DNA of 64,000 bases, taken from positions 927-64,926 of the forward strand of contig JBQTIG010000038.1 of NCBI GenBank assembly GCA_052388375.1. The letters run 5' to 3'. The stretch comes from Planctomycetaceae bacterium. GTDB lineage: Bacteria > Planctomycetota > PLA2. Position numbers and translations under genes: made by a program. Of this stretch, positions 16,282-49,782 are shown piece by piece. Under the pieces are notes generated by a model. That model had not been told where the DNA came from and did no database searches. It saw only the letters and a program-made list of their open reading frames with translations. The number at the start of each line of letters is the position of its first letter. Within the stretch, counting starts at the first letter, position 1.

Positions 16282-16444
16282 CTAGGGCCTGTCTGAATGC
16301 TCCATCGTCCGCCCGAGCCCGAGCGAGCGGGCTGCCGGCGAGCCGCGAGTCCGAAGCCGTATTGACCCCAAACAGGGCGATGGACGAGCGGCGAAGCCAG
16401 CGGCCCGCGCAGCCGGGCGAAGCCAGCTGGAGTGTTCAGACAGA
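16282..16444. mobile_element. MITE-like repeat copy 1 (163 bp, imperfect terminal inverted repeats)
   Basis: It is 95% identical (8 mismatches) to 49614-49776. The ends GTCTGAAT(G/A)CTCCATC and revcomp GTCTGA(A/C)(C/T)ACTCCA(G/T)C form terminal inverted repeats. It starts 6 nt after a stop codon. Confidence 0.8.
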
Positions 16445-16457
16445 TGGGATGAGAAGG

Positions 16458-16531
16458 CCGGTCTCCCTAGCGCAGTACCGTGAGGTCTGCATCAGTGTTG
16501 CGGGCTCAACGGCCCAGAAGGAGACCGGCCA
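16458..16531 (+). promoter_or_regulatory. Long-range 11-bp perfect stem (GGCCGGTCTCC ... GGAGACCGGCC) that sequesters the Shine-Dalgarno of the IS110-like remnant
   Basis: The 3' arm contains aAGGAGAccggcc immediately before ATG 16531, so the stem would occlude the ribosome-binding site. This is the translational control pattern common in IS transposase leaders. Confidence 0.5.
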
Positions 16532-16629
16532 TGACGCAGGATAGCACCTTGACCGTGGGCGTTTATGCCGGCGACGAGCACAGCCACCTGTGCGTGCTGG
16601 ACGGGGGCGGACAGGTCCTAGACCGCGAG
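16531..16629 (+). pseudogene. IS110-family transposase N-terminal remnant (about 33 codons)
   Basis: MTQDSTLTVGVYAGDEHSHLCVLDGGGQVLDRE follows the IS110 pattern V-G-[IV]-D-x-[GA]-K-x-x-H-x-x-C-V-L-D (K replaced by D here). The similarity ends where the frame runs antisense into the convergent DUF92 gene. Confidence 0.55.
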
Positions 16630-17283
16630 CGCGCCGAGCAGCGCCCCGGCACAGGTCGCGACGACGTTGCACCAGTCGTTGCCGCGCGCTCCGAGGCGCG
16701 GCTGCACGAACAGCCCGAAGAGGCTGTCGGCGAGGTTGCCTCCCATTCCCGCGGCGGCGACGCGCAGGGCCGTCGCCGCGTCGGGCAGCGCGTCGAGGAG
16801 GAGCGCGAGAAAGGGGACGATGGCCGCCGCGACGATCCCCGCCCCCGTTCCGAACGGCGTCATCCCGCCGTCCGCGCCCCGGACGACGCGGGGCCCGACG
16901 AGGAGCGCGCGCGGGACGCCGCCGAACCGCTTCCCCAATTCCCCGGAGAGCGTGTCGGAAAGCGCCGCCGCCAGAGCGCCGGTGGAGGCGGCCGCGCCCC
17001 AGACGAGGCCGCATCCTGACGCAAGCGCGGCCAGCGCCGCCGCGCCGCCGTTGCTTGCGACCTGACACCAGTCGCGCCGCCGTCCGGAGGCCGGCGAGCA
17101 GAGCGTGCCCAGCACGAGAAGAGCCGCGAGCACGGCGACCCCGGCCCAGCCGAGTCCGAGGGCCATGCCGCCCCCCACCAGGGCTCCCGCCAGCGCGCCG
17201 CGAAGGTCCACGGCTTCCTTCGCCAAGGCGAGCGCCGCGATGGCGGGAACCGCGGCGACCGGCCAGATGCCGTCGGGCGCCAT
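16618..17283 (-). CDS. DUF92 / VTE6-like polytopic membrane protein (putative prenyl-phosphate kinase)
   Basis: It has several TM helices and a conserved GGNLADSLFG motif. The longer 403-aa ORF in this frame is low-complexity upstream of Met 17283. Confidence 0.5.
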   Translation of the reverse strand: MAPDGIWPVAAVPAIAALALAKEAVDLRGALAGALVGGGMALGLGWAGVAVLAALLVLGTLCSPASGRRRDWCQVASNGGAAALAALASGCGLVWGAAASTGALAAALSDTLSGELGKRFGGVPRALLVGPRVVRGADGGMTPFGTGAGIVAAAIVPFLALLLDALPDAATALRVAAAGMGGNLADSLFGLFVQPRLGARGNDWCNVVATCAGALLGALAV

Positions 17284-17287
17284 GGAC

Positions 17288-17824
17288 TCATCCCAGCCAG
17301 GGCGCAAGCGCGAGCGCCGCTGCACCAGCGACGGGCAGATTGTCGTCGATCGGAAGCGGGAGCGATTCGACCGCCGCGCCCGCGGCGCCTGCGGCGAGCG
17401 CCATCGTCCAGGGGTGCGCCGTCCACGCATGCCCCAGCACGAGTGCGCAGGCGGCGGCGCCGGCGAGCGTCGCGGCGAGGGTCCCCGCCAGCGACTTGCG
17501 CGCGTTCCACGGAACGCGCGGACGCCGGAGCCGCTGGCCCACCGCAGCCGCGGTCGGATCTCCCACCGCAAGAACCACCCAGGCGCCGGCGGCGATCGGC
17601 AGAGGCGCGAGGAGGAGGAGCAGCAGCACGGCGAGAGGGTAGGTGGTGAGTCCGCCGAAGTGGCCCTCCTCGGGGCGACGGTAGGCGCGATCGAGACCGA
17701 AGTGCGGCGCGAGGAATGCGTTGTAGAGGAGCGCGCACGACGCGATGCCCGCTCCCCACGTTGCGCCGAGGCTCGGGAGCAGGAGCGCCGGGGCGCCAAA
17801 CGCGAGATGCACGAGGCGCCGCAC
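17288..17824 (-). CDS. CTP-dependent prenol kinase family protein (dolichol/phytol kinase-like)
   Basis: VGDPTAAAVGQRLRRPRVPWNARKSLAGTLAATLAG matches the VGD...VG.RFG...KT.EGS motif of COG0170 kinases. The GTG 17824 start has a GGGGAG Shine-Dalgarno 7 nt upstream. Confidence 0.5.
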   Translation of the reverse strand: MRRLVHLAFGAPALLLPSLGATWGAGIASCALLYNAFLAPHFGLDRAYRRPEEGHFGGLTTYPLAVLLLLLLAPLPIAAGAWVVLAVGDPTAAAVGQRLRRPRVPWNARKSLAGTLAATLAGAAACALVLGHAWTAHPWTMALAAGAAGAAVESLPLPIDDNLPVAGAAALALAPWLG

Positions 17825-17931
17825 GCCATCTCTCCCCTTTTTCGTTGACAAAGCGCCGTCCCCGCCCAAGAATCGCTCCTTTTGCGAGATCATAACCCTT
17901 TTCCTGACCGAGGGTTCGGAGGATCGGAGCG

Positions 17932-19146
17932 ATGAGCCAGAGCGCGACGTCTCCCCAGGGGGTGCTGCGCGCCCCGCGGGTGCTCTTCGACCTCAAGTGC
18001 CTGCTGCTCGCCCTTGCGGGTTTCGTGGTCCTCTATCTCGTCAACCTCGGGCTGGAGAAGTGGTTCGGCCAGGGGAATCCGATCGGGCAGATGGTCACCC
18101 TTCTCGCGACCGAGATCGGTCGCGTGGCGTTCCTCGGTGACGGCTTCCGGCGTGCCATGGACGGAGTCTGGGGCCTGCAGCCGCACGCCTTGAACTGGTG
18201 GCAGGGGCTCGTGACCGCCTTCCTCTTTTTCGCGACGTGGGCGGTCTTCGGGGGAGCTCTCCTGCGCACCTGCGCGCTGCGGCTCACCCGTGACGAGCCG
18301 ATCTCCCTCTCGCAGGCGCTCGTGTTTTCCGGAAGGAACCTTCGGGCGTTCCTCATCGCGCCGGTGCTGGTCGCCGTCGTGGCGGGGTTCTTCCTCGTCT
18401 GCATCGCCGCGGCCGGCTTCGTGATCAGCCTCCCGTTCATCGGCTCGTGGATCCTGGTCCTCCTGCTCTGGCCCTTGAGCCTCCTCGCGGCGCTGCTGGC
18501 GATCCTGACCCTGGTGGCCGGGCTCTTCGGCCTTCCGCTCATGTGGGCCGGCATCGCCTTCGAGCGGAACGGCGCGCTCGAGGCGCTCTCCCGCGCCTTT
18601 TCCTACATCTTCGCTCGCCCGCTGCAGTTCTTCTTCGGCTACCTGCTCATCTTCGTGTTCATGAGCGTCGTGATCCTGGTGGGCGACTCCTTCGAGGACA
18701 CGGCCAAGGAGTCGGTGCGGGTCTGGGGCGTGCGGGAGTCCTTCAAGGACATCGTCGCCTACCGGATCCCGGACAATGTCGGCGCCCTCGAGCCCGCCCT
18801 TCGGCGGACGATGGAGCAGCGCACCCGCGGCATCGCCGACCTGGACAACATCAGGCACGCCGGCGTGAAGGATTACGTCGCCTTCGCCTGGATGTGGCTC
18901 TTCCTGAGCCTCTTCCTGCTCGCCTTCAAGGCCTACGCGCTCTACGTCTTCCTCGGAGGGACCGCCTCGCTCTATCTCATCCTGCGGCGCGATGTGGACG
19001 GCACGGACGAGGAGGAGGTCTATCTGCCCGACGAGGAGGTCTCCGTCCCGACCCCCGCCGAGCAGCCTCGGTGGGTGGGAGGAGAGAAGCCGGCGGATCC
19101 CGGACCGGGCGGGGCCGGCGCGAGTCCGGGCGATCCGAAGCAGTGA
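17932..19146 (+). CDS. Polytopic membrane protein of unknown function
   Basis: It has at least 7 predicted TM helices, high GC3 and an acidic C-terminal tail. Confidence 0.55.
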   Translation: MSQSATSPQGVLRAPRVLFDLKCLLLALAGFVVLYLVNLGLEKWFGQGNPIGQMVTLLATEIGRVAFLGDGFRRAMDGVWGLQPHALNWWQGLVTAFLFFATWAVFGGALLRTCALRLTRDEPISLSQALVFSGRNLRAFLIAPVLVAVVAGFFLVCIAAAGFVISLPFIGSWILVLLLWPLSLLAALLAILTLVAGLFGLPLMWAGIAFERNGALEALSRAFSYIFARPLQFFFGYLLIFVFMSVVILVGDSFEDTAKESVRVWGVRESFKDIVAYRIPDNVGALEPALRRTMEQRTRGIADLDNIRHAGVKDYVAFAWMWLFLSLFLLAFKAYALYVFLGGTASLYLILRRDVDGTDEEEVYLPDEEVSVPTPAEQPRWVGGEKPADPGPGGAGASPGDPKQ

Positions 19147-20471
19147 AGAGGGGCGCGGTGCGGCTTGGTCCGGACGTGCTCGCGCGTGCCCGCGTCCATC
19201 TGGCGCGCACGGAGGAGGATCTCGCCCGGGCCATCGAGTTCTTCGGCACGTCGCGCGCCCGGGAAATCGTGGAGGGCCATCCGGAGGAGCGCGGATGCAT
19301 CCGGATGCTGGAGTTGGAAGGGACCATCCTCGCGGCGCTCCTCTTCGATCCCCGGCCGCTCGCGATCCGCGGCGCGCCGGTGCCCTGCGCGCGCATCGTC
19401 GAGACCGCGGGCGAGGATGGCCGGCGCCACTTCCGTGAGACCGGGGAATGCGAGCCGTTCGAGTTCCTGCTGGAAGAGCTGCTCGGCTATCTCTGGGCGC
19501 GCTCCTATCCTCTGGTCTACGCCCACGGCGAGGTCGCGCTCTATGCCCGCAAGGGATTCGTCCCCACGTTCCTGCACCCCCGGGCCTACGTGGACGTGGC
19601 GGCGGCCCTGCGCCTCCCCGCCCCCTACCGCGTCCGCCGGCTGAAAACCGACGACATCCGCCGCATCCCGGAGTTGCGGGTGCCCGGCGCCGCCGAGCAG
19701 CCCTCCGTCCTCGCCTCGGGGGTGCCGGCGTTCCACCACTTCTGCGTGGAGAGCCCGGCGCACGGCCTGCGCGGCTGGTTCAGCCTCGAAGTGTCTGCCG
19801 CCTCCCCATGGCACCCCAAGGTGTTCGTGCCCGAAGTGGAGCTCCTGGATCGCGAAGCCGCCTGCACGGTCCTGCGCCACTGCGCCGCGGAGGCGGCACG
19901 ACTCGACCTGACGGAAATCCACTTCAACGTCGGTGCCGGCCATCCCCTCGGCCGGCTCTGTCTCGAGCTGGGCGGGCGCGCCGTGGTCCGCGGCGCCAGC
20001 GCCGACGCGGGGAAGAGCGAGGAGATGCTCTGCCAGGTGGCGCGCGGGCCCCTCCTGAAGGCGCTCCTGCCGGGCATGGGTCAGCGCCTCGCGCGCTCCG
20101 CCTACGCCGAGGAGAACCGCAAGCTGGCGCTGGCTTCGGAGCGCGGCGCCATCCTGCTCGATCTGCGCCGAGGGACGATCCACGCGTCGGCAACCGAGCC
20201 CCCCGCCCCCGACCACGCCCTGATCCTCCCGGATTGGCAGCTCACGCAGCTGCTCGCCGGATATCGCGGAATCCGCGAGGTGGAGTGGCCCACCTCCCCG
20301 GTCGAGGTGGACATCCTGGACGTGCTCTTGCCCAAGGCGCCGCTCTACTCCCTTCCCGACCCCGACCACTGGGACGCGGTCCCTCCGCGGCAACCGCGCT
20401 CGAGCGAGGCAGAGGCGGTGGTGCGCGCTACGACCCTGCCGTGGGCCGCCGTTCCGCCACCAGGATCCTGA
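19143..20471 (+). CDS. GNAT-family acetyltransferase with C-terminal extension (Eis-like)
   Basis: Its GTG start overlaps the upstream stop as GTGA. An acetyl-CoA binding region follows (VYAHGEVALYARKGF). Confidence 0.5.
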   Translation: MKRGAVRLGPDVLARARVHLARTEEDLARAIEFFGTSRAREIVEGHPEERGCIRMLELEGTILAALLFDPRPLAIRGAPVPCARIVETAGEDGRRHFRETGECEPFEFLLEELLGYLWARSYPLVYAHGEVALYARKGFVPTFLHPRAYVDVAAALRLPAPYRVRRLKTDDIRRIPELRVPGAAEQPSVLASGVPAFHHFCVESPAHGLRGWFSLEVSAASPWHPKVFVPEVELLDREAACTVLRHCAAEAARLDLTEIHFNVGAGHPLGRLCLELGGRAVVRGASADAGKSEEMLCQVARGPLLKALLPGMGQRLARSAYAEENRKLALASERGAILLDLRRGTIHASATEPPAPDHALILPDWQLTQLLAGYRGIREVEWPTSPVEVDILDVLLPKAPLYSLPDPDHWDAVPPRQPRSSEAEAVVRATTLPWAAVPPPGS

Positions 20472-21087
20472 GGGAGTGCACGAGAGGGAAGCGCGCGAGA
20501 TCGGCCACGGCTCGAAAGCCGCACCGCGCGAAGCGCGCGGCCATCGCCGCCGGGGTCTCGGGGTGCTTGCCCGGCGCTCGGCCGCGGCGACGCGCCTGCC
20601 AGGCGCGCTTCCTGCAGGTGAAGGATCGCGCATCGAGGTAGGAGGCGAGGACAAAGCGCCCCGCGATGCGGCAGAGCTCGCGGGCGACGCGGTCGCGGAG
20701 CTCCTCGCTCGGGAAGTGGTGGAAGAGGCGGAAGCAGAAGACGGCATCGAAGGCGCGGTCGGCGTACCCGCTCGCCTCGAGGTCGCGCGCCTCCGCGGAG
20801 ATCGCGAGCCCCTCCGCGACGAACCGGGCGCGCGCCAGTTCCACCATGGCGGGCGAGACGTCGGCGGCGGCCACGCGATAGCCCATGAGGGCGAGCTTCG
20901 CGCTCAGGCGTCCCGACCCGCAGGGCGCGTCGAGGACGGTCGCGCCGGCGGGCACATGGCGGAACGCGCGCGCCACCAGCGCCCGCTCGGCTCGGTTCGC
21001 GCGGGTGGGTCGGTCCTTCGTGGCGGCGTACCGCGCGGCGCGATCGGCGTCGTAGTGCTTGCGGTAGGGCTCGACGGGTTGCTGCAC
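20428..21087 (-). CDS. Class I SAM-dependent methyltransferase
   Basis: Motif I reads VLDAPCGSGRLSAKLALMGYRVAAADVS. The 3' end overlaps the convergent GNAT gene by 44 nt. Confidence 0.75.
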   Translation of the reverse strand: MQQPVEPYRKHYDADRAARYAATKDRPTRANRAERALVARAFRHVPAGATVLDAPCGSGRLSAKLALMGYRVAAADVSPAMVELARARFVAEGLAISAEARDLEASGYADRAFDAVFCFRLFHHFPSEELRDRVARELCRIAGRFVLASYLDARSFTCRKRAWQARRRGRAPGKHPETPAAMAARFARCGFRAVADLARFPLVHSLRILVAERRPTAGS

Positions 21088-21149
21088 GGGCAGCGCGGAT
21101 CCTAGCCGCCCCGCCCCCGATCCGACAAATCTCCCCGTACAATCGCGCC

Positions 21150-23363
21150 ATGCGCCTGCTGGCCGCCCTCCTCGCGTTCGCCCTCCCCGCCCTCGCGCAG
21201 GGCCTTCCCCCGGCGAGCCGTATCGACGGCTGGACTTCCCAGAAGACGCAGCAGCGTCTGCGCCTCGAATGGGACTCGGTTCCCGACGCCACGCCGATCA
21301 AGCTCCCCGACGGGACCACCGAGCCCGCGCAGTCGCCCTGGCCGTTCCTGCTCTACGTCCAGAATCTCGACACCAAGTCGAGCGAGAAGATCGACGCCAA
21401 CATCCTCTCGGACACCCGCTTCTCCCTCGCTTCGCGAGTCTGCCGGATCATCCGCATCTCCCCCACCAAGGCGATCGACTTGCCCTACCTCGCCGTGGTG
21501 GAGGGCATCAAGGACCCTTCCATCGTCGTGTTCGACCGCGACTTCACCGTGGTCGGCGTTCTCAACGAGCAAAAGGAGTTCACCGCCGACCGCTGCCTGG
21601 GGCTCATGGCGAAGGCGATCGACGCGGCCTGCACGCGGCCCCTGGGGCCGTGGCTGAAGGAGTACGTCACGCTGCTCCAGGACGCGGAGAAGCTCTGGAA
21701 GGAGGAGCGGCGCATCGAGGACCTCGCGTCGCGCTCGGGCGACAAGAGCGAGGCGGACCGCCAGAAGGGGTTCCGGGAGGTAGAGGAGCTGGAACAGGCG
21801 CTCAAGGCGGAGGAGGAGAAGCTGCTCGATCGCGAGGAGGCGCTCAAGGCTTCCATGGCGGTGAAGGCCGAGGAGGCGGCGGCGCTCCCGACGACCACCG
21901 GGAAGGGCCGGGACAAGCGCGCCTTGACGCCGCAGGAGATGGAGGCCATGGGGGCCTTCCGTCGCTTCGCCCGCGACAAGAACCCGCTCGTGCGCGCCGC
22001 CGCGGTGGAGGATCTCGGATCCGTCGATTCGGCCCCCATCGTCGACTTGATCCTCACCGCCGCCAACGACGTCGATGTGCGCGTGATCCGCGCCGCGGGG
22101 GTGGCACTCGGGAAGATGCGCGCTCCCGAATCCCTCGATGCCATGACCGCGGCCCTGGCGGCGGGCAAGTCCTCCACCCGCGAGGCTGCGCTGCTCGGCT
22201 TCGCCCACGGCGTGCCCCACGCCGCCGCGGTGGCCGGCATCGTGGCCTGCCTCGAGAGCGGGAGCGACGACCAGCGCCGCTACGCGATGGAGGCGCTCGC
22301 GCGCCAGCGCGATCCCGCCGCGGTGGAGCCCCTGATCCGCGGGGTGCAGCGCGGACTACCCGCGCTGCGGGTTCTGGCCGCCACCGCCCTGGGCGAGATC
22401 CGCGCGCCGGCGGCGGCGGCCGCTCTGCTCGCCTGCCTCGCAGAGAGCGATTGGTCGCTCAAGAAGGCGGCGGCGGAGGCCCTCGGCAAGATACGCGTGA
22501 GGGAGGCGATCGAACCCCTTCTGGCGCGGCTCGAAGCGGAAGAGGGGCTCATGCTGGAGGTGATCCAGGCGGCGCTCGTCTCCACGACCGGCCAGGACTT
22601 CGGGTACAAGATCGAGAACTGGAAGCGCTGGTGGGTCATGGCCGGTCCCACCTTTCGCGTACCCACCGACGCGGAAGTCTTGAAGGCGAGGGCGCTGGCC
22701 GAGAAGGCGCTCGAGGGCTACGCCAAGCCGGACAAGCGCAAGTACCACAAGATCGAGACCCTCTCGCGCAAGATGGTGTTCATCATCGACATCTCCTCCT
22801 CCATGGGGGACAAGATCATCATCCCGCCGGACGCGCCGGCCTCCGCGGCGGAGGAGTTCCCCGACCGCATCAAGATGGAGATCGCGAAACGGGAGCTGAT
22901 CGAGATCCTCGCGACGCTGGACGGCAACGTCTACTTCAACATCATCGTGTTCGCGGGCCGCGCGAAGCTCTGGCAGGACACTCTGGTGCCGGGCTCGATG
23001 CGCACGGCGGCGATCAAGTTCGTGGCGGACCTGAAGCCGATCGCGCAGGGCGGCCGCAAGTCGGGCGGCGACGAGCAGAAGACCAACACCTACGGCGCCC
23101 TGGCCGCCGCCTTCGAGCAGAGCGACGCCGCCATACCCAACTGGAAGTCGCGGTCGCAGGTGGACACCATCTTCCTCGTGACCGACGGGCTCCCCACGAT
23201 CGGGGACATCGTCGATGTGCCCAAGCTCATCGACGCGGTGACCGAGTGGAACCGCACCCGCGGCGTGGTCATCCACGTCATCTGCTTCAACAAGCAGGAC
23301 GGCCAGCGCCTCGCGCCCTTGGCCACGCGCAACGGCGGGAAGTACGTGCTGCGGGGGTTCTGA
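21150..23363 (+). CDS. Secreted HEAT-repeat + von Willebrand factor A domain protein (paralog 1)
   Basis: A signal peptide is followed by a coiled-coil region, PBS-lyase-type HEAT repeats (LVRAAAVEDLG, VRVIRAAGVALG), a GQDFGYKIENWKRWW motif and a VWA domain with an imperfect MIDAS (FIIDISSSMGD; the canonical DxSxS has I at the second position). Confidence 0.8.
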   Translation: MRLLAALLAFALPALAQGLPPASRIDGWTSQKTQQRLRLEWDSVPDATPIKLPDGTTEPAQSPWPFLLYVQNLDTKSSEKIDANILSDTRFSLASRVCRIIRISPTKAIDLPYLAVVEGIKDPSIVVFDRDFTVVGVLNEQKEFTADRCLGLMAKAIDAACTRPLGPWLKEYVTLLQDAEKLWKEERRIEDLASRSGDKSEADRQKGFREVEELEQALKAEEEKLLDREEALKASMAVKAEEAAALPTTTGKGRDKRALTPQEMEAMGAFRRFARDKNPLVRAAAVEDLGSVDSAPIVDLILTAANDVDVRVIRAAGVALGKMRAPESLDAMTAALAAGKSSTREAALLGFAHGVPHAAAVAGIVACLESGSDDQRRYAMEALARQRDPAAVEPLIRGVQRGLPALRVLAATALGEIRAPAAAAALLACLAESDWSLKKAAAEALGKIRVREAIEPLLARLEAEEGLMLEVIQAALVSTTGQDFGYKIENWKRWWVMAGPTFRVPTDAEVLKARALAEKALEGYAKPDKRKYHKIETLSRKMVFIIDISSSMGDKIIIPPDAPASAAEEFPDRIKMEIAKRELIEILATLDGNVYFNIIVFAGRAKLWQDTLVPGSMRTAAIKFVADLKPIAQGGRKSGGDEQKTNTYGALAAAFEQSDAAIPNWKSRSQVDTIFLVTDGLPTIGDIVDVPKLIDAVTEWNRTRGVVIHVICFNKQDGQRLAPLATRNGGKYVLRGF

Positions 23364-23369
23364 CGCGGC

Positions 23370-24002
23370 CTACGGCAAGGGCCGGTAGGCGAGCGATCCG
23401 GCGTGGTAGCGGTTGGGGGGCAGGGCGCCGTAGTAGTCGTCCACCACATCGGGAAACGCGTCGGGATCCTCCGCGTAGCGTCCGGAACCGACGCTCGCCA
23501 GCAGGCCGTCCCCATCATCGAAGAGGGGAGGAGGGTCGATGGCGAGATCCCCGTGGACGTTTGCGTTGCGGTCGAGGTTCCCGGCGGGATACCCCACCAC
23601 GATCGTCCCCTCGAATCCGGCCTCCAGGAGCACCGGCGCGGCAAGGTCGACGTAGCGGAACCCCCCCTGCAGCGTGCCCCCGCCGGCGGGCAGGTCGACC
23701 GAAGCGACCATCACGCCGGTGCGGTCGTAGATGCGGACGGTGTGGTCGGAGGCGAGCCCGTCCTCCTGCCAGTCGAAGACGCCCAGGGAGGTCACCTCGA
23801 TGTCTCCCTGCAGGACGTCGAAGTCCAGGCCGAGGGAGAATCCCGCCAGGAGCTGGTCCGGCTCGAAGCCGGGCTCGACGGCGTCGAGGTTGGACGAGAA
23901 TGCGTAGACGAGCGGCGCCGGCGGGGCCCCGCTCCCGTTGCAAGCCGCGGCAAGGGAAAGCGCCGACGCGGCCACCGTCTTGAGGATCCATCGGAGTTGC
24001 AT
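23370..24002 (-). CDS. Lipoprotein of unknown function
   Basis: It has a signal peptide with lipobox (LAAACNG) and high GC3. Confidence 0.5.
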   Translation of the reverse strand: MQLRWILKTVAASALSLAAACNGSGAPPAPLVYAFSSNLDAVEPGFEPDQLLAGFSLGLDFDVLQGDIEVTSLGVFDWQEDGLASDHTVRIYDRTGVMVASVDLPAGGGTLQGGFRYVDLAAPVLLEAGFEGTIVVGYPAGNLDRNANVHGDLAIDPPPLFDDGDGLLASVGSGRYAEDPDAFPDVVDDYYGALPPNRYHAGSLAYRPLP

Positions 24003-24307
24003 GCCCGTCTCCTTGCGCCTCGTCGCGACAGCCCGCCATCCGCGCCGGCCCTGCCGCGACCCGAGGTCTTCTCGCGAAACCCTATGCCAGGGCGCGGGGG
24101 CGGCAACCGCCGAATCCCGTCGCCGGCTCGAAGTGAGACAGCCGAGAGACGCCTCACCCGGGTCCTCCTCGTCCTATCCCTGCGCCGGCACGCGGCGGGA
24201 CGCTTCGCGGACATCCCGCCGGGTTGCGCCGCGCGCCCCACGCGCTGGGGCGCAGGGCGGGACGGCCTTGGGCACGGGAGGCCCCCGCCCCCCTCCTGCG
24301 CATCCCC

Positions 24308-25000: not shown

Positions 25001-25070
25001 GCGCGCCCGCCACTCTATCCCCGCGCCCGCGACGAGCACGCATTCGCGTCATCCCGTAGGGTGGAGCCGC

Positions 25071-26605: not shown

Positions 26606-26617
26606 CTGAGCGAGGGG

Positions 26618-27863: not shown

Positions 27864-28640
27864 TCAGGCCGGGAAGAGGTCGCAGCGCACCTCGGTCAGC
27901 ATGGTCTTGAGCTTCTCGATGACGCGGGAGTGGATCTGGCAGACGCGCGACTCCGTGAGGCTCAGCACCTTCGCGATCTCCTTCATGGAGAGCTCCTCGA
28001 AGTAGTAGAGCGTCACGACGATCTGCTCCTTCCGGTTGAGGTGCTTGCAGGCGAGGTCGCGCAGGTCGCTCTTGTGCACCGCCCGCGTGGGGTCGTCGCC
28101 GCCTTGGTCCTTGACCAGATCGAGGATGCGGTTGGAACCCTCCTCCGACCCGTCGGAGTTGTCGTCGCTCAGGCTGAGCATGGAGACGGGCTTGCTGTCC
28201 TTCTCGATGCGCATGTACTCCCCGACGCTGCATTTCAGGGCGTCGGCCATCTCGAACACCGTCGCCTCGCGCCCGAGGCGGGTCTGGAGCTTGCCGCAGG
28301 TGCGGTCCACCGTCGTCGCCTTGTGGCGGACCAGGCGCGGCACCCAGTCGAGGGCGCGCAGCTCGTCGAGGATGGCGCCGCGGATGCGGTTCACGCAGTA
28401 GGTCTTGAAGAGGACGCCGCGGTCGATGTCGAACCGGTCGATCGCCTCCAGCAGACCGAAGGTGCCCATGCTGACCAGGTCGTCCAGCTCGACCGACGCG
28501 GGAAGCGTCATGAGCATCCGCTCCGCCACGTACTTCACCAGCGGCAGGTAGGTCTCGATGAGCTTGTTCTTGTAGATCTTCCTGCGCGTGCGCTTGTACT
28601 TCACCCAGACGTCTCGTACCGCGCGATCGTCGATCCGCAT
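27864..28640 (-). CDS. RNA polymerase sigma factor, sigma-28 (FliA/WhiG) family
   Basis: It has region 2 (LIETYLPLVKYVAERM, DLVSMGTFGLLEAIDRFD), region 3 and a region 4 helix-turn-helix (LSMKEIAKVLSLTESRVCQIHS). Confidence 0.85.
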   Translation of the reverse strand: MRIDDRAVRDVWVKYKRTRRKIYKNKLIETYLPLVKYVAERMLMTLPASVELDDLVSMGTFGLLEAIDRFDIDRGVLFKTYCVNRIRGAILDELRALDWVPRLVRHKATTVDRTCGKLQTRLGREATVFEMADALKCSVGEYMRIEKDSKPVSMLSLSDDNSDGSEEGSNRILDLVKDQGGDDPTRAVHKSDLRDLACKHLNRKEQIVVTLYYFEELSMKEIAKVLSLTESRVCQIHSRVIEKLKTMLTEVRCDLFPA

Positions 28641-29059
28641 GGCTCAGCCTCCTCGTCTCCGTCCGCCCGTCGTGGCGCAGGCCTGCCGAACGGCTCCCGG
28701 CGAGGGGCAAGGGGGCGCAAAACGCCGAGCGCCCGGAGCCATGGCGGCATCCGGGCGCGCGGGGTGCGCGGTCCAGACCCGTGTGGCAGCTGGCTGCCTT
28801 GCCGCGCGCGGGCGCGGTTTAGGCCCTCTAGCTTTGCGCCGCCGGCTTTCGCCGACTTTGCCCTTTCAGCCGAGTTCCGACCGATACAGTCTGCTCGAAA
28901 AGAACCAAGTCCTTTTGGGACCGCGAGAAGACTAGCCCGCCGATGTCGCGAGGCAAGCGCAACCCACAATTATTTTAGACATTTTCTCAACCCTTTATGC
29001 GGCAACGGGTTGCGATCGGACCGCCGCGGGCGGCCGCGCATGCGCGTCGTATGTCCGGA

Positions 29060-37301: not shown

Positions 37302-38561
37302 ATGCTACCCGCGCGCAAGCTACAATCCCCGCGCTTGGACCGCCGCACCATCCGGTCGTGGGCGCTCTACGACTTCGGCAACTCGGCCTTTGCGGCGCTT
37401 TTCCCCTTTGTCTTCGGCGTCTACTACACCCAACATGTCGTCGGGAACGCCGACGGCCGCGGAGACGCCTGGTGGGGCCGGATCAGCTCAGCCTCCATGC
37501 TGCTGGTGGCGCTCTCCTCCCCGCTCCTGGGAGGCATCGCCGACCATGCGGGCATCCGCAAGCGGATGCTCGCGCTCTACACCGCCGCCGGCGTCGCCGC
37601 GGTGCTCGCCTTTTCCGGGGTAGGTCCTGGCATGGTCCTGGCGGGCTTTTTCGTGGGCGTCCTCGCGAACTTCGCCTTCGAGGGGGGCAACGTCTTCTAC
37701 AACGCGTTCCTGCCCGAAATTGCGCCGCCCACCCACCAGGGGCGCATCTCGGGCCTCGGGTTCGGCGTCGGGTACGCGGGCTCGCTGGTGGCGATCGGCG
37801 GGGCGGTCCTCGTTCTGGCGCAAGACGGCCCGCTCACGGCCATCTGGATCCTGCTGGCCTGCCAGTGGGCGTTTTTCGCCCTGCCCGCCCTCCGCAACCT
37901 CCCCCGGGACCGGAGCAGCGGGATCGGCGTGGTCTCTGCGGCGCGCGTGGGGGTCGCGCAGACCCTCGCGACGATCCGGGACGTGCTCGGGATGCGCGAC
38001 CTGCGCCGGTTCCTCCTCGCCTACTTCTTCTACGAGGACGGCGTCAACACGGTGATCATCTTCTCGTCGGTCTACGCCACGACGTCCCTCGGCTTCACCA
38101 TGAGCGAGGCACTCGGCCTGCTGGCCCTCGTGCAGGTCTCCGCCCTCGCGGGATCGTTCGCGATGGCGGGCCCGACCGATCGCGTCGGCCCCAAACGGAT
38201 CGTGCGCGGGGTGCTGCTCTGGTGGATCGTAGTGGTGACGGCGGCCTTTTTCGCGCAGACCAAGCTCTCCTTCACCTGCGTGGCCGCCCTGGCGGGCCTG
38301 GGGCTGGGAAGCATCCAGGCGGCCTCCCGCGCCTTCATGGCCCGACTGGTGCCGGCGGGGCGCGAGGCGGAGATGTTCGGGTTCTACGCCCTTTGCGGGA
38401 AGTCGGGCGCGATCCTGGGGCCGCTTCTCTTCGGGGAACTCTCCCCGCGCATCGGCCAGCGCGGGGCGATCCTGAGCGTGGCGGTCTTCTACGCGATCGG
38501 CTACCTGCTGCTCCGCCGCGTCAGTCTTCCAGCTCCGTGTTCCAGTAGCGATCCGAGATGA
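37302..38561 (+). CDS. MFS transporter (UMF1/Atg22-like family)
   Basis: The N-terminal motif is RSWALYDFGNSAF, and it has 12 TM helices. Confidence 0.75.
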   Translation: MLPARKLQSPRLDRRTIRSWALYDFGNSAFAALFPFVFGVYYTQHVVGNADGRGDAWWGRISSASMLLVALSSPLLGGIADHAGIRKRMLALYTAAGVAAVLAFSGVGPGMVLAGFFVGVLANFAFEGGNVFYNAFLPEIAPPTHQGRISGLGFGVGYAGSLVAIGGAVLVLAQDGPLTAIWILLACQWAFFALPALRNLPRDRSSGIGVVSAARVGVAQTLATIRDVLGMRDLRRFLLAYFFYEDGVNTVIIFSSVYATTSLGFTMSEALGLLALVQVSALAGSFAMAGPTDRVGPKRIVRGVLLWWIVVVTAAFFAQTKLSFTCVAALAGLGLGSIQAASRAFMARLVPAGREAEMFGFYALCGKSGAILGPLLFGELSPRIGQRGAILSVAVFYAIGYLLLRRVSLPAPCSSSDPR

Positions 38562-39126
38562 AGTTCTCCCAGGAGGCCTTCCGCCTCCCGATCGCGATCT
38601 CCACGTCGCTCGACCAGCGCGGAATGCGCGGCACGCGGAGCAACCGCATCCCCGCATCCACCGGCGTGCGGTTGGACTTGCGTTTGTTGCACTCCACGCA
38701 GGCCAGCGCGCAGTTCTCCCAGGTGGTGCGGCCCCCGCGGGAGCGGGGGAGGATGTGGTCGATGGAGAGTTCTTCGCTGCCCGGACGGCAGCCGCAGTAC
38801 TGGCAGGTGAACTGGTCGCGCCGGTAAAGATTGCGGCGGCTGAAGGCCACCTTCCTGCTCGGGTAGCCGTCGTAGAGCGCGAGAACGATCACCTCCGGCA
38901 CCCGGATGTTGAGCGAGACCGTGCGGATCTGCGGCTCGTCCCGGGCCACCGCGAGGGAGGACCAGGAGTCGAAATCGTGCGTCTCGTAGGTGTCGGGACA
39001 GATCACCCGGGCCACCCGCTGGTAGACCAGGCATAGAGCGTGGCGGACGGATGTGGTTGTGATGGCCGCCCAGGAGCGGTTGAGCACCAGGGTCCGGTCG
39101 TCGAGGGTGGAGAAGGTGGCATCCAT
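38521..39126 (-). CDS. HNH endonuclease (standalone)
   Basis: The HNH-type zinc finger reads CQYCGC...HILPRSRGG...WENCALACVECNKRKSN. Confidence 0.8.
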   Translation of the reverse strand: MDATFSTLDDRTLVLNRSWAAITTTSVRHALCLVYQRVARVICPDTYETHDFDSWSSLAVARDEPQIRTVSLNIRVPEVIVLALYDGYPSRKVAFSRRNLYRRDQFTCQYCGCRPGSEELSIDHILPRSRGGRTTWENCALACVECNKRKSNRTPVDAGMRLLRVPRIPRWSSDVEIAIGRRKASWENFISDRYWNTELED

Positions 39127-40152: not shown

Positions 40153-40362
40153 GTGACCGAGCGCTCCCGCAGAATCGTCGTGAACGTCGCACGCAGCCAC
40201 GAGGAGGCGGAAGCTTGGGACCTCCGATTCTGGCACGATCTCGGTCCGACGGCGCGGCTCGAGGCGATGTGGGACATGGTTGTCGAGAGCGGCATGTGGA
40301 AAGGCGGCGATGGCAGTCAACCCCGACTTCAGAGATCTCTTTGCCGCCTTGAACGCCGCTGA
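40153..40362 (+). CDS. Small protein (69 aa) upstream of and overlapping the nucleotidyltransferase-fold gene
   Basis: It has a GTG start and high GC3. It overlaps the next gene by 53 nt in a different frame. Confidence 0.35.
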   Translation: MTERSRRIVVNVARSHEEAEAWDLRFWHDLGPTARLEAMWDMVVESGMWKGGDGSQPRLQRSLCRLERR

Positions 40363-40762
40363 GGCGCGCTACCTCGTCGTCGGGGCGCACGCCGTGGGCT
40401 TCCACGCGCGGCCGCGATTCACGAAGGATCTCGATCTCTGGGTGGAGCCCGCGCCCGCGAACGTGGGTCGCGTCCTCACGGCCCTCGCGACGTTCGGCGC
40501 GCCCCTTCGCTCGCTCACCGCGGCGGACCTGTCCGACCCGCGGACGGTGTTCCAGATCGGCGTGGCGCCGAACCGCATCGACATCCTGACGGCGCTGGAA
40601 GGGCTCACCTTCGCCGGTGCGTGGGAGCGGCGCGTCGAAGGGCGGTACGGCGACTGCACGATCCACGTTCTCGCGCGGGACGACCTCATCCGGAACAAGC
40701 GCGCGGTGGGTCGCCCCCAAGACCTCGAGGACGTGCGGGCTCTCGGGGGCGGCGCCGGGTAG
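40310..40762 (+). CDS. Minimal nucleotidyltransferase-fold protein (pol-beta superfamily; AbiEii/MNT-like)
   Basis: The segment GAHAVGFHARPRFTKDLDLWVEP matches the GS-x9-13-DhD nucleotidyltransferase motif. The C-terminus carries DDLIRNKRAVGRPQDLEDVRAL. Confidence 0.5.
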   Translation: MAVNPDFRDLFAALNAAEARYLVVGAHAVGFHARPRFTKDLDLWVEPAPANVGRVLTALATFGAPLRSLTAADLSDPRTVFQIGVAPNRIDILTALEGLTFAGAWERRVEGRYGDCTIHVLARDDLIRNKRAVGRPQDLEDVRALGGGAG

Positions 40763-46616: not shown

Positions 46617-47205
46617 CCTTGCCCTCGCGGAAGCGAAAGCCCTCCTTGCGGCCTTTCTCCACCAAGCCGTGATAGAGCCTCCGGCGCTCCTCGAGAAGGG
46701 CGGGTGTGCGCAGCGCCTCCTTCTGGTGGTGGATCACGCAGGAGTCGCTGAAACGCCGCTGGAAGCCGCGGGCCAGCTCGTGGACGGGCCGTTCGAACCT
46801 CAGTTCGGGGACGTTGGGAAACAGCCGCCCCTGCCGGTCGGGGTAGAACCGGTCGTCGGGTGCGGGGCGGGTGCGCTCTAGGTCGAGCCAGTGGCGTCGC
46901 GGGAACTCCCAGATGCAGCTCCGCGCGAGGAGCGGCCGCGGATCGCCCTCAAGGACCTCGTCGGCGTCGAGCATCAGGACCCAGTCGGCGCTGGCGCCGC
47001 GGAGCGCCTCGTTGCGCATCTGGGCGAAGTCCTCGAACGCCACGTCGAACACGCGCGCCCCGCCGGCGACCTCCCGGGTGCGATCCCGGGTCCGGGAATC
47101 GACCGCCACCACGACTTCGTCCACGACCCCCTGCACCGAGGCAAGCGTGAGCGGGAGGCCGACTTCCTCATCGCGGGCGATCACCACAAGGGCCAGACTC
47201 GGCAC
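46609..47205 (-). CDS. Glycosyltransferase family 2 (short form)
   Basis: It has an N-terminal GT-A fold motif (LALVVIARDEE) and the DxD motif MLDADEV. Confidence 0.65.
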   Translation of the reverse strand: MPSLALVVIARDEEVGLPLTLASVQGVVDEVVVAVDSRTRDRTREVAGGARVFDVAFEDFAQMRNEALRGASADWVLMLDADEVLEGDPRPLLARSCIWEFPRRHWLDLERTRPAPDDRFYPDRQGRLFPNVPELRFERPVHELARGFQRRFSDSCVIHHQKEALRTPALLEERRRLYHGLVEKGRKEGFRFREGKDA

Positions 47206-47252
47206 GGAGCAAGCCTATCAAGTTCCCGCCGGGGGATGGCCGAGGGGGAAGT

Positions 47253-47708
47253 GTGAAGAAAGGCGTCGCCGCCGTCGTCGGTTTGGCCATCGTGGGGATG
47301 GCCGCGATCGTCATTGGACGGCACATGCTCAAGCCCGCCGCCGAGAAACAGGAGCGGAGCCGCACGGTGCTCACCGGTCTCACCGAGCCGCGCCTCGCCC
47401 GCTGCCGCATCCTGGAGGACAGCGAGGTGCCCGAAGGGGTCGAGGCGCCGCGGGTCGGCGAAGCGGTCGTCTACCTGGCAGTGGAGATCCTCTACCCGGC
47501 CGCCGCGCGGGTCCCCGAACATGCCGGGATGTTCCTCTCCCGCGTGAACGGGGCCAGCGGCCGCGACCTGGAGCCCGTCCACACCGAGACCGACAGCGAC
47601 GAGGATGGGGCCTACCTCTACCTGGTATTCAAGGTGGAGGAGGAGTTCCAGTACGCCCAGATCCGTCGCGAGGACAAGGTGGTCCTCGCGCGCGTCTCCC
47701 CCGAGTAG
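47253..47708 (+). CDS. Membrane-anchored protein of unknown function
   Basis: A GAGGGGGAAG Shine-Dalgarno precedes GTG 47253. It has an N-terminal TM helix. Confidence 0.45.
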   Translation: MKKGVAAVVGLAIVGMAAIVIGRHMLKPAAEKQERSRTVLTGLTEPRLARCRILEDSEVPEGVEAPRVGEAVVYLAVEILYPAAARVPEHAGMFLSRVNGASGRDLEPVHTETDSDEDGAYLYLVFKVEEEFQYAQIRREDKVVLARVSPE

Positions 47709-47718
47709 ACTCCGTGGC

Positions 47719-48888
47719 GTGACGAGTCGCGCCCTCGCTCCCTTCGGAACCTCCGTCTTCACCGTCATGTCCGCACTGGCGCGCAGCCATGGCGCCGTCA
47801 ACCTCGCCCAGGGGTTTCCAGACTTCGACGGGCCCTCCTGGCTCTACGACGCGGCCATGGATGCCATGCGGCGCGGCATCAACCAGTACTCCATCAGCCA
47901 TGGGGCGACGGCGCTGCGCCGGGCCATCGCGGAGGACGTCGAGCGGCTCTACGGCATTGCCTACGACGCGGAGCGCGAGATCACCGTCACCTGCGGCGCG
48001 ACCGAAGGGATCGCGGCGGCGATTCTCGGACTCCTCGACCCCGGCGACGAGCTGCTCACGTTCGAACCCTTCTACGACTCCTACGCGGCCTGCGCGGCGC
48101 TGGCCGGCGCGCGGCTTCGCGCGGTCCCCCTGCGCCCCCCCCACTTCGCCTTCGACGAGCGCGAATTGGAGGCGGCCTTCGGCCCCCGCACGAGGCTGTT
48201 CCTGCTCAACACGCCGCACAACCCCACCGGCAAGGTCTTCCGCGAAGCGGAGTGCGCGGTGCTCCTCGATCTTTGCAGACGGAACGACTGCCTCCTCGTG
48301 GCGGACGAGGTCTACGAGCACCTCACCTTCGAGGGCGCGCGCCACATCTCCCCCGCCGCCCTCGACCGAGAACGGGTCCTGCGCCTCGGGAGCGCCTCCA
48401 AGACCTTTTCGGTGACCGGCTGGAAGATCGGATGGGCCTGCGGACCCGAGGCGGCCACCGAGGGGGTGCGGCGCGCGCATCAATTCCTCACGTTCTGCGC
48501 CGCCTCGCCGCTCCAGGAGGCGGTGGCGCAGGCGCTGCGCGAGGCGCCCGGGCGCGGGTACTACGAGACGTTCCGCGCCGACTACGCGCTGCGCCGCGCC
48601 GCGGTTCTGGAGGCCCTGGCCAGCGCGGGCCTGCGCGCCTTCCCCCCCGACGGCACCTACTTCGTGATGGCCGACTACCGCGCCCTCAGCGACGAGGGGG
48701 ATACCGCGTTCGCGCAAAGGCTCGTGCGCGAACGCGGGGTCGCCGCCATACCCCCCCGCTCGTTCTACGAGCACCCCGAGCATGGCCGCCACCTCCTGCG
48801 CTTCGCGTTCTGCAAGTCGGTGGAGACTCTCCGGGAGGCGGGGCAGCGGCTGGCGGGCGGGGCGGGGCATGCGATTCCTGGATCTTGA
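47719..48888 (+). CDS. Class I/II PLP-dependent aminotransferase (kynurenine/methionine aminotransferase-like)
   Basis: The N-terminus (FGTSVFTVMSALA) is typical. The PLP lysine region is SASKTFSVTGWKIG and an NPTG motif is present. Confidence 0.85.
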   Translation: MTSRALAPFGTSVFTVMSALARSHGAVNLAQGFPDFDGPSWLYDAAMDAMRRGINQYSISHGATALRRAIAEDVERLYGIAYDAEREITVTCGATEGIAAAILGLLDPGDELLTFEPFYDSYAACAALAGARLRAVPLRPPHFAFDERELEAAFGPRTRLFLLNTPHNPTGKVFREAECAVLLDLCRRNDCLLVADEVYEHLTFEGARHISPAALDRERVLRLGSASKTFSVTGWKIGWACGPEAATEGVRRAHQFLTFCAASPLQEAVAQALREAPGRGYYETFRADYALRRAAVLEALASAGLRAFPPDGTYFVMADYRALSDEGDTAFAQRLVRERGVAAIPPRSFYEHPEHGRHLLRFAFCKSVETLREAGQRLAGGAGHAIPGS

Positions 48889-48928
48889 GAACCATTCTCA
48901 TAAACTCCCGGGCATGGCCTCCCCTCCC

Positions 48929-49135
48929 ATGACCCGCTGCGAGTGCGCCGCCCTCGCCTTCAAGGAGGTGGCGCTCATTGCGGAGCGGGAGGGGTTGGGC
49001 GAGTTCGAACTGCTCTGCGCCCGGAGCGGTTGCGCCGTCACCTGCACCGCCTGCAAGCCCGACCTGCGCGCGTTTCTCCAGGCGCGCGCCGCCGGCGCCG
49101 CCCGCCTTGGCGCGGCGCGTATCATGGCGTCATGA
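48929..49135 (+). CDS. bfd: Bacterioferritin-associated ferredoxin (BFD-like [2Fe-2S] domain)
   Basis: The 2Fe-2S ligands are C-x-C ... C-x-x-C (MTRCECAAL ... CAVTCTAC). Its stop overlaps the bfr start as ATGA. It could alternatively start at ATG 48914. Confidence 0.65.
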   Translation: MTRCECAALAFKEVALIAEREGLGEFELLCARSGCAVTCTACKPDLRAFLQARAAGAARLGAARIMAS

Positions 49136-49617
49136 AGGGCAACCCCGAAGTCATCGACGTCCTCGGCGAGGTCTTGTGCGCCGAGTTGACCGCCATCAAC
49201 CAGTACTTCATCCACGCCAAGATGTGCGCGGACTGGGGCTACCACGCGCTGGCCACCTACGGTCGCGCCGAGTCCATCGACGAGATGAAGCACGCCGAGA
49301 TAGTCATCGAGCGCATCCTCTTCCTCGAGGGCGTGCCCAACATGCAGAAGTACATGAAGGTGAAGGTGGGCAAGACGGTTCCGGAGCAGTTCCAGAACGA
49401 CGTCGAGCTTGAGTACGGCGCGGTGGAACGGCTCAACCGCGGCATCGCGATCTGCGTGGAGAAGAAGGACAACACCACGCGGGAGCTGCTCGAGACCATC
49501 CTCGCCGAGGAGGAGCACCACATCGACTGGCTCGAGACCCAGCTCCATCTCGTGAAGACGATCGGGGTCGAGCGCTACCTGTCCATGAAGCTCGGGGAGG
49601 AGAAGGCCGGACACTAG
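49132..49617 (+). CDS. bfr: Bacterioferritin
   Basis: MKGNPEVIDVLGEVLCAELTAINQYFIHAKM has the ferroxidase Glu/His ligands and the heme-axial Met. It is 161 aa. Confidence 0.9.
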   Translation: MKGNPEVIDVLGEVLCAELTAINQYFIHAKMCADWGYHALATYGRAESIDEMKHAEIVIERILFLEGVPNMQKYMKVKVGKTVPEQFQNDVELEYGAVERLNRGIAICVEKKDNTTRELLETILAEEEHHIDWLETQLHLVKTIGVERYLSMKLGEEKAGH

Positions 49618-49782
49618 GGCCTGTCTGAATACTCCATCGTCGGCCCGAGCCCGAGCGAGCGGGCTGCTGGCGAGCCGCAAGTCCGAAGCCGTATTGACCC
49701 CAAACACGGCGATGGACGAGCGGCGAAGCGAGCGGCCCGCGCAGCCGGGCGAAGCCAGATGGAGTAGTCAGACAGACCCTAG
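49614..49782. mobile_element. MITE-like repeat copy 2 (169 bp with 25-bp terminal inverted repeats)
   Basis: The terminal inverted repeats are CTAGGGCCTGTCTGAATACTCCATC and revcomp CTAGGGTCTGTCTGACTACTCCATC. The bfr TAG stop is the first 3 nt of the element. Confidence 0.8.

What the first reader, a model, noticed from the sequence alone, without database searches (positions are those of the whole stretch)
16282..49782. Two 95%-identical MITE-like elements with terminal inverted repeats, 33 kb apart, each abutting a stop codon
Copies at 16282-16444 and 49614-49782 share 155 of 163 positions. Both carry imperfect terminal inverted repeats of 16-25 bp (CTAGGGCCTGTCTGAAT.CTCCATC and its reverse complement). 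Copy 2 supplies the TAG stop of bfr. Each copy reads through as a spurious ORF (MTPNRAMDERR...), but neither has coding capacity for a transposase. This is a non-autonomous element family, and the two direct copies bracket the 33 kb accessory-rich interval.
Basis: seen in the sequence. Interest (0 to 1): 0.6.

Follow-up and report, generated by a model that had tools for sequence, protein, structure and literature searches.

The report
Small hairpin transposon inserted at CTAG sites
Two copies of a 169-bp non-coding, hairpin-forming mobile element (a MITE) sit at CTAG sites at gene ends in an uncultivated planctomycete; a close relative lacks both, so they are real insertions, but this is an ordinary kind of element and it does not mark a mobile 33-kb island.

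Summary
The repeat is real. Window 16282-16444 and 49614-49776 are 154/163 identical (E about 1e-68), and copy 2 has 25-nt terminal inverted repeats. The whole 169 nt folds end to end as one hairpin (-115 kcal/mol, z = -12).

Two contigs from a related metagenomic planctomycete (86-90% identical flanks) carry both orthologous sites empty, each with a single CTAG. In the window each insertion is flanked by CTAG on both sides. This is a target-site duplication of CTAG, or of the TA within it.

The CTAG targets already contained TAG stop codons: bfr on the + strand and a DUF92 gene on the - strand. The element did not supply the stop.

Copy 1 really spans 16282-16621. Its right inverted repeat is split by an unrelated 166-bp insert flanked by a 5-bp GACAG repeat.

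The 33-kb interval is collinear with the MITE-less relative at both ends. It holds ordinary chromosomal genes and no transposase, so the idea of a bracketed accessory island is not supported.

No other copy was found in the metagenome contigs, viral contigs, plasmids or protein databases searched. Genome-wide copy number and the parent element remain unknown. An IS5-family origin is tentatively favoured. Verdict: a new member of a known kind, of low to moderate interest.

The parts
16282..16285 (.). Left CTAG of copy 1 (duplicated target)
   Evidence: The relative's empty site has one CTAG; the window has CTAG at 16282 and at 16618.
16286..16443 (+). MITE copy 1: first 158 of the 161 body positions (element positions 5-162), ending in GACAG (16439-16443)
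   Evidence: The shared 163-nt block 16282-16444 (which includes the left CTAG) is 154/163 identical to copy 2. The same sequence is present in independent Logan contigs L105 and L106.
16444..16609 (.). Nested 166-bp insert of unknown origin that splits copy 1's right terminal inverted repeat
   Evidence: Absent from copy 2 and from the relative. Present identically in Logan contig L106. No inverted-repeat termini, no special fold (z about -1), no Rfam, Pfam or NCBIfam match.
16610..16614 (.). Second GACAG, a 5-bp direct repeat flanking the nested insert
   Evidence: Read directly from the sequence. Removing 16444-16614 restores a 169-nt element with a complete right terminus, which folds at -108 kcal/mol in the near-identical reconstruction.
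16615..16617 (+). Last 3 nt (GTC) of copy 1's right terminal inverted repeat
   Evidence: GACAG|GTC|CTAG matches the reverse complement of the left terminus, GACAGGCCCTAG, at 11 of 12 positions.
16618..16621 (.). Right CTAG of copy 1; 16618-16620 is the TAG stop of the minus-strand DUF92 gene
49614..49617 (.). Left CTAG of copy 2; 49615-49617 is the TAG stop of bfr
49618..49778 (+). MITE copy 2 body, 161 bp, intact, a near-perfect palindrome
   Evidence: Absent from the orthologous site in L103.
49779..49782 (.). Right CTAG of copy 2 (duplicated target), 3 nt before the GTG start of the DUF6288 gene at 49786

Best explanation
This is a miniature inverted-repeat transposable element (MITE). It has a 161-bp non-coding body with roughly 21-25-nt terminal inverted repeats, and its two halves are nearly reverse-complementary. 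A DDE transposase encoded elsewhere in the genome mobilises it in trans.

It integrates at the rare tetranucleotide CTAG and duplicates it (4 bp, IS5-like), or duplicates the central TA (IS630-like). In this 71% G+C genome CTAG is scarce and often lies at TAG stop codons. That is why both insertions sit exactly at gene 3' ends.

Copy 2 (49614-49782) is intact. It now puts a 165-bp hairpin between bfr and the DUF6288 gene, which are only 4 nt apart in the relative.

Copy 1 (16282-16621) lies between two convergent genes. It is an older, decaying copy: a 166-bp insertion with a 5-bp duplication has split its right inverted repeat.

Shown: the repeat, the inverted repeats, the hairpin, absence from orthologous sites, and the flanking CTAG duplication. 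Inferred: transposition in trans, the transposase family (IS5 group tentatively preferred), and any effect on expression of the neighbouring genes.
For: - Two copies, 94.5% identical, in unrelated contexts.
- Terminal inverted repeats occur far more often than chance.
- The whole element folds as one hairpin, z about -12.
- No coding capacity. The translations have no homologue among 5.8 billion proteins or 1.84 billion representatives.
- Empty site for copy 2: L103 reads ...GGGCACTAG-AGCC-GTG, while the window reads ...GGACACTAG[161 bp]CTAG-CCC-GTG.
- Empty site for copy 1: L104 reads TGGTGAGGATGCG-CTAG-AGCGCGAGC, while the window reads TGGTGAGGCGG-CTAG[332 bp]CTAG-ACCGCGAGC.
- Flanking DNA is otherwise 86-90% identical and collinear.
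- CTAG occurs only 23 times in 64 kb, against 171 expected from base composition and 81 from a Markov estimate. Several of these are TAG stops.
- Directly after the CTAG, the left repeat GGCCTGTCTGAATACTCC matches the repeat of MITEPsy1 (GGAAGGTCTGAAAAAGCC) at 12 of 18 positions in register. MITEPsy1 is a Pseudomonas syringae MITE from an IS5-family element, and it duplicates CTAG/YTAA by 4 nt. Only 11 of 63,982 window 18-mers match as well.
- At all six paired positions where the copies differ, copy 2 pairs and copy 1 has a mismatch or wobble. This fits neutral decay of copy 1 from a palindromic master.
Against: - Only two copies were seen. Genome-wide copy number is unknown.
- No autonomous element with matching ends and no transposase gene is present in the window.
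- No related sequence was found in JGI metagenome contigs, IMG/VR contigs or PLSDB plasmids.
- CTAG is itself palindromic. A 4-bp duplication, a TA duplication, or a CTAG that belongs to the element cannot be told apart from two insertions.
- Similarity of the inverted repeat to E. coli IS5 itself is not significant (9/16).
Confidence: 0.82

Rival explanations
1. A REPIN- or PATE-like palindromic element moved as single-stranded DNA by a tyrosine HUH transposase (RAYT or IS200/IS605 type). It would insert next to a specific tetranucleotide (here CTAG) without a true duplication, the second CTAG being part of the element.
For: The whole element is one long hairpin, which suits single-strand transposition. 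CTAG is palindromic, so a terminal CTAG could belong to the element. Insertion is strictly next to one tetranucleotide.
Against: REP units are 20-40 nt, and REPINs are usually shorter than this element. No RAYT or IS200-like gene is in the window. The in-register similarity to an IS5-type inverted repeat and the symmetric CTAG...CTAG arrangement fit staggered-cut DDE integration more simply.
Confidence: 0.08
2. A local segmental duplication, or a composite transposon in which two direct copies mobilise the 33 kb between them.
For: Two copies lie in the same orientation 33.3 kb apart. A few small lineage-specific indels exist inside and near the interval.
Against: - Homology stops exactly at the element ends, and each copy has its own pair of CTAGs.
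- The interval's first 6.7 kb and last 1.4 kb are collinear with a relative that lacks both copies.
- Contig-length arithmetic puts the end of the relative's 38.5-kb contig within about 170 bp of the start of its next contig, as expected if the whole interval is conserved.
- G+C content is uniform.
- The genes are ordinary chromosomal ones.
Confidence: 0.02
3. A functional structured RNA or DNA element (transcription terminator, insulator, mRNA stabiliser or small RNA) kept at gene ends by selection, with mobility only incidental.
For: An extremely stable hairpin on both strands. Both copies lie immediately after stop codons, one of them between convergent genes.
Against: - No Rfam family matches.
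- No U-tract terminator or sigma-70 promoter pattern is present.
- The relative functions without it at both loci.
- The differences between copies are not compensatory; they simply weaken copy 1's stem.
- The position at stop codons is explained by the CTAG target.
Confidence: 0.08

Closest known systems
MITEPsy1 of Pseudomonas syringae pv. phaseolicola (derived from ISPsy2, IS5 family; PMC3189936)
   Same: It is small and non-coding with terminal inverted repeats. It inserts at CTAG (or YTAA) with a 4-nt duplication. Its repeat starts with GG directly after the duplication and shares the GTCTGAA core, matching 12 of 18 positions in register.
   Different: It is 100 nt rather than 169 nt (161-bp body). 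It is not described as a full-length palindrome. The host phylum and G+C content differ. Its parent IS is known, whereas no parent is known here. There is no similarity outside the inverted repeat.
IS630/Tc1-mariner-derived bacterial MITEs (for example Correia elements of Neisseria and RUP of Streptococcus pneumoniae; recalled from memory) and IS630 itself
   Same: IS630 integrates at TA within CTAG and duplicates the TA (Tenzen & Ohtsubo 1991, as cited in PMC2170065). This would give exactly the CTAG...CTAG arrangement seen here. These MITEs are 100-160 bp, have inverted repeats and are often intergenic.
   Different: No similarity of the inverted repeat to an IS630-family end was shown. The element would have to begin with G and end with C to recreate CTAG on both sides.
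ERIC/IRU and REPIN-type palindromic repeats (recalled from memory)
   Same: They are imperfect palindromes of about 100-130 bp in intergenic, transcribed regions, and they form long hairpins.
   Different: Those families have no defined target duplication, and REPINs depend on a RAYT gene. Here a flanking duplication of the target is seen at both loci.

Membership tests
MITE (bacterial non-autonomous transposon with terminal inverted repeats) | Small size and no transposase coding capacity | tested here: met
   169 bp including both CTAGs. Only read-through ORFs are present, and they have no homologues.
MITE (bacterial non-autonomous transposon with terminal inverted repeats) | Terminal inverted repeats | tested here: met
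   23/25 matches in copy 2. Copy 1's repeat becomes complete once the nested insert is removed.
MITE (bacterial non-autonomous transposon with terminal inverted repeats) | Target-site duplication shown against an empty site | tested here: met
   Relatives L103 and L104 each have a single CTAG where the window has CTAG-element-CTAG.
MITE (bacterial non-autonomous transposon with terminal inverted repeats) | Multiple dispersed copies in one genome | tested here: inconclusive
   Two copies lie in the 64-kb window. The rest of the MAG could not be read. Both Logan contigs around copy 1 end inside the element, although copies 1 and 2 share no 29-mer or 31-mer. One of them carries three variant bases. 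This is a hint of further copies, not a count.
MITE (bacterial non-autonomous transposon with terminal inverted repeats) | A cognate autonomous IS with the same ends | not testable with these tools
   No transposase is in the window.
IS5 family (IS5 group) derivative | 4-bp duplication of CTAG/YTAR | tested here: inconclusive
   CTAG lies on both sides at both loci. The same picture would arise from a TA duplication if the element's ends were G...C.
IS5 family (IS5 group) derivative | Inverted repeats resembling IS5-group ends | tested here: inconclusive
   12/18 in register with the MITEPsy1/ISPsy2 repeat, an empirical frequency of 1.7e-4 among window 18-mers. Only 9/16 with E. coli IS5, which is not significant.
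IS630/Tc1-mariner derivative | TA duplication, often within CTAG | tested here: inconclusive
   Compatible with both insertions, but not distinguishable from a 4-bp duplication.
REP/REPIN (mobilised by a RAYT) | No target duplication; an associated RAYT gene; 20-40-nt REP units | tested here: not met
   A flanking duplication is present, there is no RAYT-like gene in the window, and the unit is a 169-nt hairpin.
Composite transposon or MITE-bracketed island | The interval between the copies is absent from, or relocated in, relatives, with one shared outer duplication | tested here: not met
   Each copy has its own duplication. Both ends of the interval are collinear with the MITE-less relative.
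IS110-family remnant (considered for the nested 166-bp insert) | Recognisable DEDD transposase N-terminus | tested here: not met
   No Pfam or NCBIfam hit at E <= 10. tblastn against plasmids gave E = 1-8.
Any Rfam RNA family | Covariance-model match | tested here: not met
   Nothing on either element at the gathering threshold or at E <= 1. The only hit, sul1 at E = 0.33, is chance.

The most novel reading that the evidence does not exclude
The nested 166-bp piece in copy 1 may be a second kind of miniature mobile element. It has no terminal inverted repeats and may specifically target the inverted repeat of the first element, as IS110/IS1111-type recombinases target REPs and transposon ends. 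That would make this locus a record of one mobile element parasitising another in an uncultivated planctomycete. Alternatively, the 169-nt hairpin family may be RAYT/HUH-mobilised, with CTAG acting as a guide-recognised site.
Probability: 0.07. Interest if true: 0.55.

Novelty: new member of a known kind. Interest (0 to 1): 0.27.

Why it matters
- It documents recent transposition in an uncultivated, high-G+C Planctomycetaceae lineage. It also gives a clean, comparison-backed example of a CTAG-targeting MITE.
- It explains why such elements appear glued to stop codons in G+C-rich genomes: TAG stops are among the few places where the target exists.
- Copy 2 separates bfr from a downstream gene that is only 4 nt away in the relative, and places a very stable hairpin 3 nt before that gene's start codon. 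It may therefore alter expression (inferred, not shown).
- For annotation, the read-through ORFs are spurious, and the element should not be read as the boundary of a genomic island.
- None of this changes current understanding of MITEs.

Tried and rejected
1. Genome-collection scan with CTGTCTGAMYRCTCCAKC. The pattern was too degenerate: it gave 100 chance hits and none was related. Genome-wide copy number is therefore unknown.
2. Metagenome scan with GGGYCTGTCTGAMYRCTCCAKC gave two hits, both chance. The viral contig scan gave none.
3. A concatenated six-frame translation of the element against 5.8 billion proteins gave nothing. The frame +2 peptide against 1.84 billion representatives also gave nothing.
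4. blastn against plasmids gave only chance hits.
5. I suspected the nested insert was the 5' end of an IS110-family element, because of the peptide MTQDSTLTVGVYAGDEHSHLCVLDGG. This was not supported. In addition, the last residues of the peptide I first judged by eye (GQVLDRE...) are encoded by the MITE terminus and the flank. The insert shows no special fold and only weak codon periodicity.
6. Exact protein look-ups for bfr, the 404-aa ORF and the DUF6288 protein found no contig.
7. A literature search for the inverted-repeat strings returned only unrelated primers.
8. nhmmer with a two-copy profile found no degenerate copies in the window or in the relative's contigs.
Full report
**Observation.** blastn gives E about 1e-68. 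The 17-nt terminus is found three times in the window against 0.07 expected. Copy 2 has 25-nt terminal inverted repeats matching at 23/25: CTAGGGCCTGTCTGAATACTCCATC and the reverse complement of GATGGAGTAGTCAGACAGACCCTAG.

The symmetry extends well beyond the ends. The full 169 nt folds end to end as one hairpin on either strand. As RNA it gives -115.2 and -111.9 kcal/mol, with z = -12 and -10. As DNA it gives -62.3 kcal/mol, z = -9.7.

**Source and context.** The window is about 71% G+C with a uniform profile. Two of its proteins are 100% identical to NCBI entries MGQ0613187.1 and MGQ0613220.1, both named 'MAG... [Planctomycetaceae bacterium]', on an 81,104-bp contig.
- Copy 1 lies between a formylglycine-generating-enzyme family gene (+ strand, TGA stop at 16274-16276) and a convergent DUF92 membrane-protein gene (- strand, stop at 16618-16620).
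- Copy 2 lies between bacterioferritin (49132-49617) and a DUF6288/PDZ gene that starts with GTG at 49786.

**The decisive comparison.** A related organism in JGI metagenome 3300019487 has orthologues of the two flanking proteins used as queries at 88% (DUF6288) and 79% (FGE) identity. Its two contigs (L103, L104) are 86-90% identical to the window in DNA and collinear with it. Both sites are empty there.
- Copy 2 site: L103 reads ...GGGCA-CTAG-AGCC-GTG. The window reads ...GGACA-CTAG-[161 bp]-CTAG-CCC-GTG.
- Copy 1 site: L104 reads TGGTGA-GGATGCG-CTAG-AGCGCGAGC. The window reads TGGTGA-GGCGG-CTAG-[332 bp]-CTAG-ACCGCGAGC.

The duplication is present.

**Stop codons.** The TAG of bfr already exists in the uninserted CTAG of the relative, so the element did not supply it. 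At the other locus the target CTAG contained the TAG stop of the minus-strand DUF92 gene. That gene remains intact in the window.

CTAG is very rare here: 23 occurrences in 64 kb against 171 expected from base composition and 81 from a Markov estimate. Four of the 23 flank the two elements, and several others are TAG stops. A CTAG-specific integrase in a 71% G+C genome will therefore land at gene ends by default. That accounts for the 'abutting a stop codon' pattern.

**Anatomy of copy 1.** The insertion at this locus is 332 bp between the two CTAGs, not 161 bp. Its first 158 nt are the MITE body up to ...TCAGACAG. Then come 166 unrelated nucleotides (16444-16609), a second GACAG (16610-16614), and finally GTC followed by CTAG. 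Removing the 166-bp piece and one GACAG restores a 169-nt element. Its right terminus, GACAGGTCCTAG, matches the complement of the left terminus at 11 of 12 positions. So a second insertion, with a 5-bp direct repeat, has split the right inverted repeat.

The nested piece has no terminal inverted repeats. It folds no better than shuffled sequence (z about -1) and matches no Rfam, Pfam or NCBIfam family. I suspected an IS110-type left end because of a short peptide resemblance. tblastn E-values of 1-8 and the absence of HMM hits do not support that. Its origin is unknown.

The composite is not an assembly artefact. An independent Logan contig from run SRR34758881 carries the nested piece and the adjoining MITE arm identically.

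**Relation between the copies.** Six of the nine differences fall at paired positions of the hairpin. At all six, copy 2 forms a Watson-Crick pair and copy 1 has a mismatch or a G-T. There are no compensatory double changes. This is what neutral decay of copy 1 from a palindromic master predicts. It gives no evidence that the structure is under selection.

**The 33-kb interval.**
- Each copy carries its own duplication.
- The first 6.7 kb after copy 1 (16618-23361) and the 1.4 kb before copy 2 (48212-49621) are collinear with the relative.
- If the rest is collinear too, the relative's 38.5-kb contig would end near window position 48,380, and its next contig starts at 48,212. This arithmetic fits a conserved interval, though it is an inference.
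- Pfam annotation shows methyltransferase, HEAT/VWA, pyridine-nucleotide oxidoreductase, sigma factors, NUDIX, peptidases, an MFS transporter and glycolate-oxidase-like subunits, among others. No transposase or integrase is found anywhere in the window.

The claim of a bracketed accessory island is not supported. Recombination between the copies would also be inefficient, since they share no identical stretch of 29 nt or more.

**Family and distribution.** No other copy was found in the window or in the relative's contigs, in JGI metagenome contigs, in IMG/VR or in PLSDB plasmids. Neither protein database search with translations of the element found anything.

There is a weak hint of more copies. 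Both Logan contigs flanking copy 1 stop inside the element, at positions 99 and 116. One of them ends with three bases (C83, T92, C94) that match neither window copy. Yet copies 1 and 2 share no 31-mer that could break a k = 31 graph. That Logan uses k = 31 is from my own knowledge. Poor coverage across a strong hairpin is an alternative cause.

**Which transposase?** Two known families give this footprint.
- IS5-group elements duplicate 4 bp at CTAG/YTAR.
- IS630 integrates at the TA within CTAG (cited in PMC2170065).

Directly after the CTAG, the left repeat GGCCTGTCTGAATACTCC matches GGAAGGTCTGAAAAAGCC at 12 of 18 positions in register. The latter is the repeat of MITEPsy1, an actively transposing 100-nt MITE of Pseudomonas syringae. 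MITEPsy1 derives from the IS5-family element ISPsy2 and duplicates CTAG/YTAA (PMC3189936). Only 11 of 63,982 window 18-mers match as well. Similarity to E. coli IS5 itself is not significant. I therefore prefer an IS5-group parent, with modest confidence.

**Likely consequences (inferred).** In the relative, bfr and the DUF6288 gene are 4 nt apart, an arrangement that suggests coupled expression. In the window a hairpin of -115 kcal/mol ends 3 nt before the GTG start, which could attenuate read-through or hide the initiation region. Copy 1 sits between convergent genes, where an insertion does little harm. No sigma-70 promoter or U-tract terminator pattern is present.

**Verdict.** This is a genuine MITE with a target duplication demonstrated by comparison. 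It probably represents a previously undescribed family in an uncultivated planctomycete. One copy is intact and the other is disrupted by a nested insertion. It is a new member of a well-known kind. The island interpretation and the 'supplies the stop codon' reading should be dropped.

Noticed in passing
window 28782-28872 (-): A c-di-GMP-I riboswitch (Rfam RF01051, 66.7 bits, E = 7e-11) lies about 140 nt upstream of a minus-strand sigma-70-family gene (27864-28640; Sigma70_r2/r3/r4). A c-di-GMP riboswitch controlling a sigma factor in a planctomycete may be worth a look.
   Followed up: partly
window 14444-14529: A perfect 43-bp tandem duplication spans the TAG stop of the polysaccharide-export gene (13758-14483). 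The relative L104 has a single copy, so this is a recent lineage-specific duplication.
   Followed up: yes
window 51441-53422: A roughly 2-kb segment of lower G+C (65%) replaces about 660 bp of the relative and truncates a conserved 147-aa gene. It encodes a DUF4325 (STAS-like) protein and a 448-aa HATPase_c/STAS protein. Both give weak PADLOC matches to parts of the DISARM DrmA model. It may be a small defence or accessory insertion with no recognisable mobile-element ends.
   Followed up: partly
window 23361-24207 versus L104 11184-14296: An indel inside the interval. The relative carries a 591-aa gene and an HNH_2 gene (3.1 kb) where the window has a 210-aa DUF4082 gene.
   Followed up: partly
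window 16444-16609: A 166-bp insert of unknown origin lies within the MITE's right inverted repeat, flanked by a 5-bp GACAG repeat. It contains a perfect 11-bp stem (GGCCGGTCTCC / GGAGACCGGCC). No family was matched.
   Followed up: partly
window 34750-34869: A 12-nt-period tandem array (CCCGATCCGACN and similar, about 10 units) lies within the Peptidase_C1-domain gene 33883-35322. It encodes a Pro/Asp/Thr-rich linker.
   Followed up: no
window 38521-39126 (-) and 40310-40762 (+): An HNH endonuclease gene (PADLOC PtuB-like, E = 1.6e-10) and a weak DUF6036 nucleotidyltransferase match lie in the middle of the interval. They may form a small accessory patch.
   Followed up: no
L105 1863-1879 (Logan SRR34758881): The contig that carries the 100% identical FGE gene ends inside the MITE. 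Its last bases carry three differences from the window (T83C, C92T, G94C), and these make the hairpin tip more perfect. This is either another copy or a strain variant.
   Followed up: partly
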